Source of the DNA: a virus
Taxonomy: Duplodnaviria; Caudoviricetes
Virus record (IMG/VR): IMGVR_UViG_3300005611_000110
Location: 1-33,928 of that record
Reading direction: 5' to 3' (one strand)
Length of the DNA: 33,928 nt
Below, in pieces: positions 23,330-30,101 of this stretch. Within the stretch, counting starts at the first letter, position 1, and the number at the start of each line of letters is the position of its first letter. The position numbers were made by a program, and so were the translations under genes. Under the pieces are notes generated by a model. It was not told the DNA's origin, did not search any database, and worked only from the letters and a program-made list of their open reading frames with translations.

Positions 23330-24915
23330 AATTCAAAATCCGTCGTTGCCTGGAATTGCTGTGGACCGGCAGAGCCATAGCGACCGCCGTACCCCCTGGT
23401 AATGACTCGATGCTCACCGCCACCGAGCATGAGATAACCAAACGCATCGCCGACGTGTGAGTGTTCGTTCTTGTTCGGCGCATCGCGGAATCGCTCCTGC
23501 CCACCACCGACGGAGATCCGCTTGAAGTGATAGCCGCCGGCCAATGACTTACGCAGTCGCTGACAATCCTTGTGTACCTGTAGCCCAGGCTTGCGATCAA
23601 TAAACCTGTTCATAGGCATTGCTCCCGCTTCACGGCGCACCTGGAAGTCGTTACTGGCTGTCGGCCTGGCATTAAGACCGATCGTCCTGAGATGATCGAA
23701 CGCCGTCACCTCAAAGATTTCGTCACGCTTTGAGCCGGCTGGATCGCCCCAAACCAATATATCGTTTTTGCTATAATTTACGTTTATTTCGTTTAGCAAA
23801 ATCAGACCGAATCGCTCAAGGCCCATGTCGTCGGTGACGATCTCCTTAAATATATGCCAGGCACCAGCAGCTGTTCGCTGACCAAAGACTGCCGCAGGCG
23901 TCAAACCAAAGTCGAGTCCGATGTGGATTGGCAGCGTTGGGTCGATTTGTATTTCGTCTGTCGACATGACCGAGTCATCGTACTCCGGCCACACTGGCCG
24001 ACCTTCCTGCACATACACATACTCGCCGCCGGCATAACAGCGAATCCAGTCGAGGTTCTTGCCGCCGAGCTGCTGATCGTAATAGCCAGGTGGTAGGTTG
24101 TTGATGTTCTCAGCCTGCGGGTTCACCTTCCAAAACTTACGCGCTGCAGGGATGCTAGCTGGGTCATCTTGGTTAGTTTCGATCACACCGCCTGGCTGCT
24201 TAAAAAACTCCCACTTGTACTTGCCGCGCACCGGCTCTTTTTCTGACAGGCGATACCACCAGTGGTCATCATCCATCGGGTTTGTATCCATCCAGATGCC
24301 ACGCCAAGGACAACCGCCGTTGCCTTTGGTTGGATAACGACCGACACGGTGTGTGAGCCCCTGTACGACAGCCAACGGCATTTCCCTGGCTTCGTTGACC
24401 CAGGCGCCAGTGAGCTCGAGAGACAGCAGCTTTCTGACGTCCTTCGGCTGATCGAGCGCCATGAAGATCACTTCGCAGTCGATACCGGCTGCGTCACCGC
24501 GAGCAGGTAGCTTGATGTGGTGACTGATTGGTGGTGACCAGCGCATCGGCCCCCAGATGTTCTCTGGGAATAGCTCAAGCCATGTCTTAATTGTGGTGGT
24601 ACGCAGCTCAGGGTAGCTGTTCCGCACGATCACGAACCGTGAGTATCGTATGCCGTCCTTCGGCGATGGTGGCTGCTTCACGGCGCGCAGCATGATTTCG
24701 GCAGCGCAGCCGTATGACTTACCGGAACCTACCGGCCCCATCAATCCGCGTACAAACGAATTGTCATGTAGGAACTTCCAGGTTGTCGGCGCGCCAGAGA
24801 AATCTAGGTTAAGACCGCCGAGCGCTTCTTCAGAAGAGATTGTCCTGTCCGTCGTCGCTCTTCGGCGTCGGGTCGATCTCTGGCTCTGATCTGTCGCTTG
24901 CTTCGCTCTCGCCAT
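23323..24915 (-). CDS. terL: Terminase large subunit
   Basis: Walker A GPVGSGKS, Walker B AWVNEARE, DTNP coupling motif, RNase H-like IGLDFGLTP, SHVGDAFGY. Confidence 0.95.
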   Translation of the reverse strand: MARAKQATDQSQRSTRRRRATTDRTISSEEALGGLNLDFSGAPTTWKFLHDNSFVRGLMGPVGSGKSYGCAAEIMLRAVKQPPSPKDGIRYSRFVIVRNSYPELRTTTIKTWLELFPENIWGPMRWSPPISHHIKLPARGDAAGIDCEVIFMALDQPKDVRKLLSLELTGAWVNEAREMPLAVVQGLTHRVGRYPTKGNGGCPWRGIWMDTNPMDDDHWWYRLSEKEPVRGKYKWEFFKQPGGVIETNQDDPASIPAARKFWKVNPQAENINNLPPGYYDQQLGGKNLDWIRCYAGGEYVYVQEGRPVWPEYDDSVMSTDEIQIDPTLPIHIGLDFGLTPAAVFGQRTAAGAWHIFKEIVTDDMGLERFGLILLNEINVNYSKNDILVWGDPAGSKRDEIFEVTAFDHLRTIGLNARPTASNDFQVRREAGAMPMNRFIDRKPGLQVHKDCQRLRKSLAGGYHFKRISVGGGQERFRDAPNKNEHSHVGDAFGYLMLGGGEHRVITRGYGGRYGSAGPQQFQATTDFELW

Positions 24916-25303
24916 CTTCTAATACCTCATAGGTGGTTACTTCAGGGCCTTTCAAATTGATGCCCAGGATACTTGGCCTGCTGTCTGAATCACTGTTGGG
25001 CTCATGCAGCCCGTGATAACGCGCCAGGACACGCAATGCAGATAGCTTGTCATGCATTTCGACCTCGATCGCATTGCCGTACTGATTGGGCGTGACTTTA
25101 ACTTTCTTGATCGCCTTCTGCACATGCACTGGTATGTCAGAGCTTTTGAGCAGAGCCATGCCACCTGTTTGCGTCCACTGCAACACATCGGTGATGTTCG
25201 ACGCGGCGATCGCTTGCAGCTCCTGCTTGACGGCCTCTTTCTCATCGTCCGATCCGATTGCCAGGATTTTGCGCGCCTCGCGGACTGTCATCTTGTTAGT
25301 CAT
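24830..25303 (-). CDS. terS: Terminase small subunit
   Basis: ELQAIAASNITDVLQW...AIKKVKV...EVEMHDKLSALRVLARY; directly upstream of terL. Confidence 0.8.
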   Translation of the reverse strand: MTNKMTVREARKILAIGSDDEKEAVKQELQAIAASNITDVLQWTQTGGMALLKSSDIPVHVQKAIKKVKVTPNQYGNAIEVEMHDKLSALRVLARYHGLHEPNSDSDSRPSILGINLKGPEVTTYEVLEDGESEASDRSEPEIDPTPKSDDGQDNLF

Positions 25304-25575
25304 AACTTTCTCGCAATCTCAATGAGCGACGCCTCAGCTTGCAGCTCTTCTTGGTATTCGATCTCTTCAAGATAATCAACCATTCTCTGGATAAACCACT
25401 TGGCTTTGTTGAGGTCGTCCAGGCCGCCTTTCTCTTTCCAGCGCCACAGATACTTGATTGCGGAGCCGGTAGCGTAGGCTTCTGCGCCGGATAGGTTTTG
25501 CACTGCTGCTTCAATTGCGTCGATGCACTCCATGCCGTCGCGCTGGTAGTGGTTTGGGTTGATGATGTCTTTCAT
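25300..25575 (-). CDS. DUF3310 / T7 gp1.7-like protein, 91 aa
   Basis: INPNHYQ..GMECIDAI...AIKYLWRWKEKGGLDDLNKAKWF; start reset to ATG 25575 after AGGAG SD. Confidence 0.88.
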   Translation of the reverse strand: MKDIINPNHYQRDGMECIDAIEAAVQNLSGAEAYATGSAIKYLWRWKEKGGLDDLNKAKWFIQRMVDYLEEIEYQEELQAEASLIEIARKL

Positions 25576-25640
25576 CTTACTTCTCCTGTTGGATTCCGGA
25601 AAAATTTTGAGCGAGAGCCCCCACACACAAGCGGCACCCG

Positions 25641-25648
25641 GGGGAGGG
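25641..25648 (+). promoter_or_regulatory. KOPS octamer (FtsK orienting sequence)
   Basis: GGGGAGGG matches GGGNAGGG; 45 bp before the XerD arm and oriented towards it. It sits in a G-run, so could be incidental. Confidence 0.45.
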
Positions 25649-25658
25649 GGGAAGGTCG

Positions 25659-25667
25659 ATATCCACA
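25659..25667 (+). promoter_or_regulatory. DnaA box, one mismatch
   Basis: ATATCCACA vs consensus TTATCCACA. Confidence 0.4.
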
Positions 25668-25693
25668 GGGTCCGGCGTTGTGCAGCGCACAAG

Positions 25694-25721
25694 ATTTAAC
25701 ATAAATATAGTTATGCGACAT
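25694..25721 (-). other. dif: dif-like XerC/XerD recombination site (28 bp)
   Basis: Minus ATGTCGCATAA-CTATAT-TTATGTTAAAT vs E. coli dif GGTGCGCATAA-TGTATA-TTATGTTAAAT: XerD arm 11/11, XerC inner CGCATAA conserved, 6-bp spacer, intergenic. Confidence 0.85.
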
Positions 25722-25732
25722 CGGCCCTTTTG

Positions 25733-25745
25733 TAAGTCGTTGTTT
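25733..25745 (-). promoter_or_regulatory. IHF-like binding site
   Basis: Minus AAACAACGACTTA vs WATCAANNNNTTR, one mismatch. Confidence 0.4.
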
Positions 25746-25764
25746 TAATTGACGATTCTCAATC

Positions 25765-25773
25765 TGTGGATAA
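25765..25773 (-). promoter_or_regulatory. Perfect DnaA box
   Basis: Plus TGTGGATAA = minus TTATCCACA. Confidence 0.6.
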
Positions 25774-25799
25774 CTGTTGTTCATTTCTTGCTCAATTGG

Positions 25800-26519
25800 C
25801 TAATTCTTGTACAGCTTGGCCCACTTTGCGACCTGCTCCAGGGTCATCGGCGGCGACGCTCCTCGACGCAGGTTTTCCCTGGTCATTGCGATCGCTGCAT
25901 CCCTTACCTCGTCAGCTGTCACGCCTTGTGAGCCCAGCATTTGCGCGGTCTGCAGTGATTTGTCGGCCATCCTGACGGCGCCTGACGCCCTCTCGACTCC
26001 GGCGCGGAACGCATGCGCCAAACTCCTAAAGTCCGTTTTTCCATCCCCCAGACCCCCTGATCTTTTATTGTTGTCGTCATTGTCAGCAAGTTGGCTTGGC
26101 TCCTCCACGATCTTGGGGCGCGGCGCCTCGAACTGCTCCTTAGTTGGCAATGGATCGTTACCGTTGAACAGCACCTGGTATCGATTCGTAATGCCAGGAC
26201 TCTTCCGCTTGATGTGGATCGGGTACGCCTTTCGCTGCAGCTTCCTGATGTAGCCAGCCTTGATGAGCTTTTGTACATGCCTGGATACTGTCTCGGCGCG
26301 AACATTGACATGCCTGGCTAACGTAAGCAGCGACGGCCAACAGATTCCGTAGGCGTTTGTGTGGATACAGATCGCTCCCAGGACTCTCAGCGTGTTGTGA
26401 GACAAACTGTCGTCCTGGATCGCTCGAGCAGGCAGCACAGAGTATGTCCTGGTTGCTGGCTTCTCTTTCGGATAGTCCCCGACCTTCGGGAACCTCGGTT
26501 CAGAAGGGGATTTCGTCAT
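25800..26519 (-). CDS. Winged-HTH protein (HTH_36 / replication-initiator-like), 239 aa
   Basis: YSVLPARAIQDDSLS...LRVLGAIC..TN..GICWPSLLTLA...TVSRHVQKLIKAGYI...TNRYQV. Confidence 0.8.
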   Translation of the reverse strand: MTKSPSEPRFPKVGDYPKEKPATRTYSVLPARAIQDDSLSHNTLRVLGAICIHTNAYGICWPSLLTLARHVNVRAETVSRHVQKLIKAGYIRKLQRKAYPIHIKRKSPGITNRYQVLFNGNDPLPTKEQFEAPRPKIVEEPSQLADNDDNNKRSGGLGDGKTDFRSLAHAFRAGVERASGAVRMADKSLQTAQMLGSQGVTADEVRDAAIAMTRENLRRGASPPMTLEQVAKWAKLYKN

Positions 26520-27012
26520 CTAGCTGCTCCTGGTTGTGCTTAAATTCGATTGACCTGACATATGCGCCAGGGAATTGCTTCTTGATTTCGTCGGCTACAT
26601 CGACTTTGTCCGCCTGGATGATCGTCACGATCTCGTCCAGTGTGTACACGATCGGGTCCTTACCTTTCATCAATGGCAACACTCGCTGCATGTCCATCTG
26701 ATCCGACACAAAGTAATAGTTCTTTTTGTTGATCCTGGCAGTCAGGTAAAAGACATCGTCCGGCGCTCGCTCTTCAAGCAGCTGCCGATCGATCACCTTT
26801 AACCCCTTGCTCAGGTTCTCGCAGCATTTGACCAGGTCACCAATGCCATCGATCGCGTCCATGTATCGCTGCCTGGCTTTTGAATACTTCGCCGCTAGAT
26901 CAGGAGTCGTCATCTTCTGCCAGGCATACCAGCCCCATTTTCGATTCATTTGCGTTTCAGCTGCATGAAACGATTCATAAGCAGCTTTCTCTTCTGGTCT
27001 TAAATCTCTCAT
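26500..27012 (-). CDS. Hypothetical replication-module protein ending in DDEIPF, 170 aa
   Basis: Long ORF coupled to the HTH gene; C-terminus EQLDDEIPF. Confidence 0.75.
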   Translation of the reverse strand: MRDLRPEEKAAYESFHAAETQMNRKWGWYAWQKMTTPDLAAKYSKARQRYMDAIDGIGDLVKCCENLSKGLKVIDRQLLEERAPDDVFYLTARINKKNYYFVSDQMDMQRVLPLMKGKDPIVYTLDEIVTIIQADKVDVADEIKKQFPGAYVRSIEFKHNQEQLDDEIPF

Positions 27013-27024
27013 CTCTCACCCCTG

Positions 27025-27243
27025 CGCGAACGCGAACAGCGAACAGAACTAAGGGTTCTGTTCTGTTCGTTCGCATTGTCTTGCTGTGCCATTTTTTGTT
27101 CGTTCGTTGTTCGCTCTTGTTCGCACCAGCCGCAAACCCGCATAAACACTGGGTTAGTCATTGTTCGCTCCTTGTTCGCTGCTGTTCGTTTCTTGCATCC
27201 AGGTAGCAGTTTTCTGGCCCACCGCGAACAAGACGATGTTCGC
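27025..27243. repeat. GTTCG/CGAAC iteron array, probable replication origin
   Basis: By hand count, 10 GTTCG and 4 CGAAC in ~220 bp; converging inverted arrays around 27050-27054; several copies 10-11 bp apart. Confidence 0.75.
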
Positions 27244-29113: not shown

Positions 29114-29689
29114 TCAAAACTCCCAGGTTTCATCGTCCGATGAAGATGCCGGCTGGGGTGCAGGTGCCGGCTCGGGAGCGGGTGTTGACACTGGTTCTGG
29201 CGCTGCAGCTGCTGGCGCTGCTTGACCCTCTGGCCGATCGGTCCAGCCGACAAGCTCGAATTGTGGCACTCGGGTCTGGCCTTTCCCGATCGCTTGCGCT
29301 ATTGCGCCGTTGTATTTGACCTTGGCAACTTTGCCCTGGTTGCTCGCTGCGCCGTTATGGATTGCAGGCCATACAGCTTCAAGTCCCATCTTGGGGCCGC
29401 TGCCTGTTGTGGTCCATTCACGCCAGCCGCTGTCCTTCAGGTAAACCATGACGCTGAATCCGCGCTTGTGATCTGGTGATGGTTGATGCCCACGCACTCC
29501 GGCACGCTCATCCCAGGACCATTCCGGTGCGACGCCTTCGCTGATTTTGCCCCAGCCAGTCTTAAGACTGTCCGGATCGATCAACAAACCCTTGAGCTCG
29601 ATCTCTTCGCCGTCGACTAACCACTGGTTCAACGATGGCTTGAAGCGGACGTACTCCGCAGCTGAATCACTCAGTCCTAACATACTCAT
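29114..29689 (-). CDS. ssDNA-binding-like protein, 191 aa
   Basis: Trp-rich core (LKTGWGKI...), Pro/Ala linker and acidic aromatic tail DDETWEF; start reset to 29689 after GAGGAG SD. Confidence 0.6.
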   Translation of the reverse strand: MSMLGLSDSAAEYVRFKPSLNQWLVDGEEIELKGLLIDPDSLKTGWGKISEGVAPEWSWDERAGVRGHQPSPDHKRGFSVMVYLKDSGWREWTTTGSGPKMGLEAVWPAIHNGAASNQGKVAKVKYNGAIAQAIGKGQTRVPQFELVGWTDRPEGQAAPAAAAPEPVSTPAPEPAPAPQPASSSDDETWEF

Positions 29690-29690
29690 A

Positions 29691-30101
29691 CTATTTCTCC
29701 TCACTCTCTTCGAGCGTTTCTCTGACGATGCCGCACCACAGCTCGAAACTGATTTCTGCGACGCTGTTGAAGTCATGCTGCTCATAGCAGTCATGACCAG
29801 GTCCCATCCAGTTCACAAAAACTTGGATAGGCTTCCTGTCCTGCTTGACGATTAACACGGGCCGACACTCCCTGGCAGCTGCTTGTGCTTCACACTGCAG
29901 CCAGAATGTCTTGAGGTCTGAGGGTACGCAGGTCGCGTACCTTTTACACTCGATACTCCAACCAGGCACACCCGACAGATCGTCACCGCCCTGCTGGTAT
30001 TGCTCCAGGTTTCGTTTGCAATCAAAGCCCAGGTTGTCCCGGATCTTGTTAGCGATCTCTCTCTCGAAAGCAGCGCCTTTGCGCCGGCTCATCGCACCCA
30101 T
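29691..30101 (-). CDS. Holliday-junction resolvase-like PD-(D/E)XK nuclease, 136 aa
   Basis: SRRKGAAFEREIA...GGDDL...WSIECKR...W.QC..QA...PVLIVKQDR. Confidence 0.85.
   Translation of the reverse strand: MGAMSRRKGAAFEREIANKIRDNLGFDCKRNLEQYQQGGDDLSGVPGWSIECKRYATCVPSDLKTFWLQCEAQAAARECRPVLIVKQDRKPIQVFVNWMGPGHDCYEQHDFNSVAEISFELWCGIVRETLEESEEK

What the first reader, a model, noticed from the sequence alone, without database searches (positions are those of the whole stretch)
25694..25721. Intact XerCD dif-like site in an integrase-less tailed phage
Seen: ATGTCGCATAA-CTATAT-TTATGTTAAAT, with the XerD arm identical to E. coli dif and correct 11-6-11 geometry. It is intergenic at the replication/packaging boundary with phage genes on both sides (attP-like). 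Known: IMEX elements (CTXphi, VGJphi, TLC) integrate at dif via host XerCD, and plasmids use Xer sites for dimer resolution; I do not recall this being well described for T7-like podoviruses. Inference: (a) integrase-free lysogeny at host dif, (b) monomerisation of circular or carrier-state genomes, or (c) control of concatemer formation. The arm sequence suggests a gammaproteobacterial host.
Basis: partly seen in the sequence, partly recalled or inferred. Interest (0 to 1): 0.88.

Follow-up and report, generated by a model that had tools for sequence, protein, structure and literature searches.

The report
Host dif site beside phage packaging
A marine short-tailed phage and most of its close relatives keep a copy of the bacterial chromosome-untangling site dif next to their DNA-packaging genes, which likely lets the host XerC/XerD enzymes join the phage's own two genome ends rather than insert it into the host chromosome.

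Summary
The 28-bp dif-like site is real (0 of 100 shuffles) and lies in a near-complete, integrase-less MEP301-like podovirus, not a T7-like phage. It sits at the same place in 44 of 47 close viral loci and 0 of 26 distant ones, with conserved arms, at least 17 spacers and two orientations.

Integration is unlikely. The spacer mismatches the usual gammaproteobacterial dif spacer at all six positions, and no junction or close prophage was found. Integrase-bearing phages carry the same kind of site.

Among 34 dif-bearing viral records with a detectable terminase, 28 have it within 2 kb. Sites beside TerL occur in nine unrelated terminase lineages. Cultured phages Gotham and DP carry dif inside annotated terminal repeats. 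One sequencing run hints at a ~370-bp terminal repeat here that includes the site; another run does not.

Best reading (0.5): host XerCD recombines the two terminal copies, circularising incoming DNA or monomerising concatemers. No activity was tested. I found no report in six literature searches. This scan noted the same idea earlier on other DNA (rV5-like phages, a giant phage).

The parts
25711..25721 (-). XerC-arm of the dif-like site
   Evidence: the inner CG(C/T)(A/G)TAA is kept in relatives, the outer four bases vary
25705..25710 (-). 6-bp spacer CTATAT; differs at all 6 positions from the common host spacers TGTATA and TATATA
   Evidence: 15 different spacers among 40 distinct forward sites plus 2 in inverted sites
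25694..25704 (-). XerD-arm, canonical
25733..25745 (-). IHF-consensus-like 13-mer (8 of 9 consensus positions here; consensus recalled) ending 11 bp before the XerC arm
   Evidence: perfect consensus at this offset in 29 of 40 distinct relatives; no perfect match anywhere in the window
25765..25773 (-). DnaA-box-like 9-mer (consensus recalled), the only perfect one in the window
   Evidence: present at this offset in 34 of 40 distinct relatives
25659..25667 (+). second, inverted, one-mismatch DnaA-like box on the XerD side
   Evidence: present in a subset of relatives
25600..25655 (-). poly-C ... GGGGG ... CAAAATTTT motif, kept also in dif-less relatives; likely marks the end of the terminal repeat. 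It contains the window's only KOPS-like octamer (25641-25648, + strand, pointing at the XerD arm)
   Evidence: a similar poly-C/GGGGG motif lies at the right end of the annotated 357-bp terminal repeat of phage phiM5
25679..26047 (.). candidate direct terminal repeat (about 370 bp, perhaps extending to about 25610) that contains the site; inferred
   Evidence: run X4: contig depth 12.6 against 5.7 and 5.3 on either side, ending in Illumina adapter at 26047; not seen in run X7
25800..26519 (-). HTH_36 'replication-initiator-like' gene that stays linked to terS in dif-bearing and dif-less relatives
25300..25575 (-). DUF3310 gene
24830..25303 (-). terminase small subunit
   Evidence: PF03592
23323..24915 (-). 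terminase large subunit, MEP301-like
29691..30101 (-). RusA-like junction resolvase; a possible finisher of an XerC-made Holliday junction (inferred)
   Evidence: phrog_244

Best explanation
The phage carries one intact dif-like site just upstream of its terminase genes, in a stretch that is likely its short terminal repeat, so a packaged genome would hold two identical copies that host XerC/XerD would recombine to close the incoming DNA into a circle, or to cut head-to-tail concatemers into unit circles. Shown: the site, its position, its conservation, its free spacer and the absence of a phage recombinase. Inferred: the terminal repeat, Xer binding and recombination, and the route of activation (FtsK, or an XerC-first junction finished by the phage RusA-like resolvase, possibly shaped by IHF on the XerC side). 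Because both partners are copies of one site, any spacer and either orientation would work, and a spacer unlike the host's would keep the phage from recombining with the chromosome.
For: Position is conserved: 13 of 14 loci with TerL 78% or more, 44 of 47 with TerS 68% or more against 0 of 26 at 62% or less, and 31 of 34 against 0 of 35 in metagenome contigs. These sets share contigs. A TerL tree gives a 24-row clade (SH-aLRT 99) with 21 sites, one nested loss of 3 rows, and one more inverted site on a long branch outside it (quick search). The spacer is free: 15 variants in 40 sites, 2 more inverted. Of 76 dif-bearing viral records, 34 had a phrog_2 TerL, and the site is within 2 kb of it in 28 of 34; among 20-50 kb records 10 of 11, against 1.4 expected. 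Nine TerL lineages that do not link at 35% identity have an adjacent site, usually 38-170 bp before a poly-C tract in either orientation. A second family has it between terS and terL in 20 of 21 loci. Cultured phages Gotham (459-bp repeat) and DP (514-bp repeat) carry dif inside annotated terminal repeats. Integrase-bearing YeP4 and yong1 carry it beside packaging genes. Run X4 shows doubled depth over 25679-26047 with an adapter at 26047, and X1 is compatible. ERF was found in 0 of 22 dif-bearing and 7 of 27 dif-less family records, including both near-complete nested losers.
Against: No binding or recombination was tested. The terminal repeat rests on one contig of one run. In X7 the contig over this stretch (9.2) is not deeper than its neighbour (8.25), X1 and X2 are confounded by strain mixtures, and X3 and X5 are single spanning contigs. 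Most of the wider MEP301-like family, and cultured MEP301 and phiM5, lack the site and mostly lack an integrase too, so it is dispensable. Most dif-less records also lack ERF (20 of 27, including six near-complete ones), and the nested loss is one event. A 28-bp site with a 6-bp spacer normally needs FtsK or accessory proteins (PMC11724359, passages), and no activator was identified. KOPS-like octamers are barely enriched (31 of 45 against 23 of 48 dif-less, p 0.06). The data cannot separate end-joining from dimer resolution.
Confidence: 0.5

Rival explanations
1. The site works like a plasmid Xer site on an already circular genome: XerCD resolves dimers or unlinks catenanes during theta replication or a carrier state, and its place by the terminase only reflects a tolerant non-coding gap.
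For: A free spacer and either orientation fit equally well. DnaA-like and IHF-like motifs on the XerC side occupy the position where plasmid accessory sequences lie (PMC11724359, passages). Four large dif-bearing records have the site 14-44 kb from TerL. The phage encodes a YqaJ exonuclease that could make dimers.
Against: No ParA or ParB in 5 of 5 records tested. It does not explain 10 of 11 mid-size records, or nine TerL lineages, placing the site at the packaging start, nor dif inside annotated repeats of lytic phages.
Confidence: 0.22
2. XerC/XerD, with IHF and DnaA, only bind near the genome end and act as a protein cap or scaffold: shielding ends from exonucleases, stopping a translocase, recruiting Topo IV or shaping the terminase cut, with no strand exchange.
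For: Arms are conserved while spacers drift freely. IHF-like and DnaA-like motifs recur beside the site in other lineages (perfect IHF in 16 of 38, DnaA in 8 of 38 sites).
Against: The 6-bp spacing is kept in all but one relative examined (L310 has 5 bp, possibly an assembly slip), although cooperative binding would also need it. Members such as L001 lack the IHF and DnaA motifs yet keep the site.
Confidence: 0.15
3. The site is an attP for integration at the host dif by XerCD (a tailed IMEX).
For: Full-length arms and no integrase. Three of 17 clade spacers also occur among listed host spacers. The true host is unknown, and dif spacers vary between species (PMC2731167, passages). Unchecked scan notes describe integrase-less tailed prophages at dif in other phyla.
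Against: Described double-stranded IMEX sites share at least part of the central region with the host dif (PMC5357621, passages). This spacer matches none of 149 listed host spacers and mismatches TGTATA and TATATA at 6 of 6 (hand count). Both halves of the spacer vary in close kin. No close prophage in GTDB genomes. No loose end at the spacer among those shown for 6 runs (149 loose ends were not displayed). The HTH gene was found upstream in every site-bearing metagenome contig. The family is integrase-less with or without the site.
Confidence: 0.1
4. A non-functional relic picked up once from a host or plasmid.
For: It is confined to one clade of the family and was lost once.
Against: Arms stay nearly invariant while the spacer and flanks turn over, and unrelated lineages hold it at the same functional place.
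Confidence: 0.03

Closest known systems
Phage P1 Cre-loxP
   Same: A tyrosine-recombinase site on a tailed phage genome used self-by-self for genome maintenance (PMC7192630, passage on unlinking). Its role in closing the terminally redundant genome is recalled, not read here.
   Different: P1 encodes its own recombinase and is a partitioned plasmid prophage. Here no recombinase or Par gene was found, and the site is of host XerCD type.
Plasmid Xer sites (ColE1 cer, pSC101 psi, R27 xrs)
   Same: 28-bp XerC/XerD core with an unconserved central region, acting between identical copies; extra protein sites on the XerC side (PMC11724359, passages).
   Different: Carried by a 34-kb tailed phage at the packaging start. 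The neighbouring motifs are IHF-like and DnaA-like; ArgR or ArcA boxes were not looked for.
IMEXs (CTXphi, VGJphi, TLCphi, gonococcal genetic island; also gokushoviruses, PMC7062461, search listing only)
   Same: Dif-like site on a mobile element without its own integrase.
   Different: IMEX sites mimic part of the host central region and are found integrated. This site has full arms, a host-unlike spacer and no integrated copy found.
Methylophilales phage MEP301 (PMC8024684, passages)
   Same: Genome size, TerL (71%), virion gene order, no RNA or DNA polymerase, YqaJ and RusA genes.
   Different: MEP301 has no dif-like site and carries ERF and a resolvase-domain gene; GC is 40% against about 50%.
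rV5-like Vequintavirinae (Gotham, Klebsiella phage DP)
   Same: Dif-like site with a non-host spacer; there it lies inside an annotated terminal repeat.
   Different: Large phages (137-146 kb) of enterobacteria. The site is not annotated in those records, and I found no paper on it.

Membership tests
IMEX | dif-like attachment site on the element | tested here: met
IMEX | no element-encoded integrase | tested here: met
IMEX | central region homologous to the host dif on at least one side | tested here: inconclusive
   0 of 6 matches to the two common class spacers and no match among 149 listed; actual host unknown
IMEX | integrated copies flanked by hybrid sites | tested here: not met
   none; hosts may be unsequenced, so absence is limited evidence
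IMEX | XerCD-dependent integration | not testable with these tools
   needs host and phage in culture
Plasmid xrs (cer/psi type) | 28-30 bp XerC/XerD core with free central region | tested here: met
Plasmid xrs (cer/psi type) | accessory sequence with ArgR or ArcA box beside the XerC arm | not tested
   IHF-like and DnaA-like motifs found there instead; ArgR/ArcA boxes not scanned
Phage-plasmid | partition genes | tested here: not met
   no ParA or ParB in 5 of 5 records
P1 Cre-loxP type | phage-encoded recombinase | tested here: not met
P1 Cre-loxP type | site inside the terminal redundancy | tested here: inconclusive
   X4 for, X7 against, others unclear; analogy to phiM5
T7-like (Autographiviridae) | single-subunit RNA polymerase and DNA polymerase | tested here: not met
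   none among 43 ORFs scanned
MEP301-like podoviruses | related TerL, about 34 kb, shared virion gene order, no polymerases | tested here: met
   no formal taxonomy was run

The most novel reading that the evidence does not exclude
Many unrelated tailed phages, from marine podoviruses to enterobacterial lytic and temperate phages, have repeatedly placed a host dif site with a private spacer in their terminal repeat, so that host XerCD joins their genome ends: a recombinase-free counterpart of P1 Cre-loxP and a general, overlooked host dependency of tailed phages.
Probability: 0.45. Interest if true: 0.85.

Novelty: new variant of a known kind. Interest (0 to 1): 0.72.

Why it matters
Xer hijacking is described for integration by small or non-tailed elements and for plasmid dimer resolution. 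If tailed phages use it on their own ends, it would offer one answer to how short-terminal-repeat phages without an annealing protein handle their ends. It would also add XerC/XerD, and perhaps FtsK and IHF, as host factors, and make dif-like sites a marker of genome termini and host class in uncultured phages. It warns against reading every phage dif as an attP. Cultured coliphages carry the same arrangement, so it can be tested at once in laboratory E. coli.

Tried and rejected
1. Chance match: rejected.
2. T7-like identity: rejected.
3. Prophages of the clade in GTDB genomes: the 12 loci found were all distant (TerL 72% or less).
4. Junctions at the spacer in Logan contigs: none among the loose ends shown.
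5. A different dif type in dif-less relatives: a relaxed scan found nothing convincing.
6. Dif replacing an integrase: no; 1 of 50 family records has one, 0 of 14 near-complete.
7. KOPS polarity: largely explained by the poly-C tract.
8. CTX-style fold-back, promoter or terminator at the site: folding z 0.83, no consensus sites.
9. Phage-encoded activator: the 170-aa ORF 26500-27012 tracks the site (18 of 18 against 2 of 34), but this is confounded by kinship, the Atlas gave only unnamed viral clusters below 0.9, and it was not folded.
10. Contig ends: 12 of 27 ends within 1.2 kb fall at window-equivalent 26044-26235. The interval was chosen after looking and overlaps a variable linker, so I give it little weight.
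11. BLAST with the window's own 36-mer found no related site in cultured phages.
12. Host identification failed.

Full report
Observation. The minus strand at 25721-25694 reads ATGTCGCATAA / CTATAT / TTATGTTAAAT. It is the only match in the window to a recalled dif pattern at up to 3 mismatches, and none of 100 shuffles gave one. It lies in the gap between an HTH gene (stop at 25800) and a DUF3310 gene (ATG at 25575), followed by terS and terL.

The phage. Scans of 43 of the 157 listed ORFs show a podovirus with a T7-type portal and scaffold, a primase-helicase, a RusA-like resolvase, a YqaJ exonuclease and small HTH/LexA-like genes, but no RNA or DNA polymerase. The closest cultured relative is the OM43 phage MEP301 (TerL 71%; PMC8024684, passages). 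The window is 98% complete, and its ends lie about 230 bp apart in a relative. Six-frame searches of the window and 4 dif-bearing relatives found no tyrosine integrase, serine resolvase, ParA or ParB. Runs that hold the stretch are labelled marine, estuarine or marine sediment.

Conservation. With TerL as query, the site was at the same place in 13 of 14 loci of 78% identity or more with enough upstream DNA, and in 0 of 51 loci at 65-73% (best 80 of 600 stretches kept). With TerS, it was in 44 of 47 loci at 68% or more and 0 of 26 at 62% or less (7 loci with under 800 bp upstream left out). In metagenome contigs it was in 31 of 34 and 0 of 35. One of those three misses has a 5-bp spacer. These sets share contigs and are not independent. 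A quick TerL tree of 66 rows puts 21 site-bearing rows in one 24-row clade (SH-aLRT 99), with 3 site-less rows nested as one loss and one more inverted site (L101) on a long branch outside.

Anatomy. Among 40 distinct forward sites there are 15 spacers, and two inverted sites add two more. Arm conservation is partly built into the search pattern; the spacer freedom is not. A perfect IHF-like consensus lies about 24 bp before the XerC arm in 29 of 40 sites and a DnaA-like box at about 52 bp in 34 of 40 (both consensuses recalled). Some members lack both and keep the site. Downstream is a poly-C/GGGGG/CAAAATTTT motif that dif-less relatives also keep, so the dif block is an insert in front of an older motif.

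Against integration. Of 401 Gammaproteobacteria genomes, 177 matched the pattern. By hand count of the 149 listed matches (34 more were not listed; one genome flagged unpublished is left out), 117 spacers are TNTATA, 146 start with T, none starts with C and none is CTATAT. The window's spacer mismatches TGTATA and TATATA at all six positions. Three of the 17 clade spacers do occur in that list. VGJphi, TLCphi and the gonococcal island share part or all of the central region with the host site (PMC5357621, passages). Dif spacers are conserved within but not between species (PMC2731167, passages), so an unusual host remains possible. No close prophage was found in GTDB, no loose end at the spacer was shown for six runs (part of the list was cut), and phage genes flank the site in every metagenome contig. 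The family lacks integrases whether or not it has the site (1 of 50 records). Three of 50 other dif-bearing viral records have their own integrase, as do cultured YeP4 and yong1, which carry a site beside packaging genes.

A wider pattern. About 1,400 IMG/VR stretches hold the pattern; 120 were returned and 80 came with flanks. I searched 76 of those records (three of this clade and one duplicate end left out) for phrog_2 TerL; 34 matched. The site is within 2 kb of TerL in 28 of 34. Among records of 20-50 kb it is 10 of 11, against 1.4 expected, the exception being a host-type site in a provirus. The other misses are four records over 70 kb and one at 3.5 kb. Site-adjacent TerLs fall into nine groups that do not link at 35% identity, and in most the site lies 38-170 bp before a poly-C tract, in either orientation (these loci were hand-picked for long flanks and mostly non-host spacers). 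A second family has it between terS and terL in 20 of 21 loci and shares arm and spacer variants with this clade.

Why the terminal repeat. Phage phiM5, whose TerL groups with one of those lineages, has an annotated, exact 357-bp terminal repeat that ends 42 bp after the start of such a poly-C tract; phiM5 itself has no site. Transferred to the window, that span would cover about 25965-25610 and include the site. In run X4 only three contigs lay on 25450-26300: depth 5.7, then 12.6 over 25679-26047 ending in Illumina adapter, then 5.3. X1 is compatible (25.8 against 12.6) but has mixed strains. X7 does not show doubling (9.2 against 8.25). X3 and X5 are single spanning contigs. Contig depth is a blunt measure, and this is a hint only. 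In cultured phages the link is direct: Gotham has dif at 170-197 in a 459-bp annotated repeat, and Klebsiella phage DP at 274-301 in a 514-bp repeat. SYP and the T7-like p2106 have it within 170 bp of a record end. I wrote the terminal-repeat idea down before seeing scan notes that reach the same reading for rV5-like phages and a giant phage. Those notes are not independent support; I checked the rV5-like claim myself.

Mechanism. If the repeat holds the site, each virion DNA has two identical direct copies, and XerCD recombination between them would give a unit circle; the same reaction on a concatemer would release unit circles. Self-by-self pairing explains the free spacer and orientation, and a host-unlike spacer would avoid crossing with the chromosome. 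Activation is open. Such 28-bp sites need FtsK or accessory proteins (PMC11724359, passages), and activated XerCD works on short oligonucleotide substrates (PMC3130261, passage). A KOPS-like octamer points at the XerD arm, but such octamers are nearly as common in dif-less kin (31 of 45 against 23 of 48). An XerC-first junction finished by the phage RusA-like enzyme is the alternative. ERF, recalled as the protein that closes P22 DNA, is in 0 of 22 site-bearing and 7 of 27 site-less family records, including both near-complete nested losers. That is suggestive but one event, and most site-less records lack ERF too.

Novelty. Six full-text searches on dif or Xer with tailed phages, terminase, terminal repeats, phage-plasmids, circularization and Vequintavirinae listed IMEX, plasmid and chromosome papers and nothing on this arrangement. 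I saw listings and abstract openings, plus passages of the papers cited. Subscription papers and supplements were not seen. I file it as a new variant of Xer hijacking, not as an IMEX. Confidence that the site serves the phage's own DNA rather than integration is about 0.85; confidence in end-joining or concatemer cutting specifically is 0.5. Interest 0.72.

Noticed in passing
window 26500-27012 (-): 170-aa protein ending in an acidic tail ...DDEIPF that resembles the recalled C-terminal tip of bacterial SSB; no PHROG or Pfam family; tracks the dif clade (18 of 18 against 2 of 34).
   Followed up: partly
window 29114-29794 (-): Unannotated protein with a Pro/Ala linker and acidic aromatic end, beside the primase-helicase; likely a single-strand binding protein. 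The Atlas gives only unnamed viral clusters (0.97).
   Followed up: partly
window 27020-27200: Non-coding stretch with short TTGTTCG-type repeats and an inverted pair between the helicase and the 170-aa gene; a candidate replication origin.
   Followed up: no
G004 (L289:7521-11047): A close relative without the site has a different replication block (DnaB helicase, replication protein, ERF, NinB, anti-restriction gene) and an HNH gene splitting terL.
   Followed up: partly
L087:2569-4489: A 110-kb viral record has a dif-like site next to a replication protein, far from TerL; looks like a phage-plasmid dimer-resolution site.
   Followed up: no
L415:35819-35846 (OP947225.2): A true T7-like phage (Ralstonia phage p2106, Serkorvirus) has a dif-like site about 80 bp from its record end.
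   Followed up: partly
L410:355-382 (ON470579.1): Escherichia phage 606R2 has a dif-like site between the Q and holin genes, 1.5 kb before terS.
   Followed up: no
listing: 362 phage records matched a host-type dif 32-mer, among them 19 Rheinheimera Barba phages and many rV5-, CR3- and PVPSE1-like phages; most rows shown have no annotation at the match.
   Followed up: partly
L291-L292 (G005): An unrelated 36-kb podovirus with its own DNA polymerase has a site with the same XerC arm as the window about 30 bp from its contig end.
   Followed up: partly
family loci: KOPS-like octamers outside the site region are rarer in dif-bearing loci (23 in 356 kb) than in dif-less ones (74 in 409 kb); the loci overlap and composition was not controlled.
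   Followed up: no
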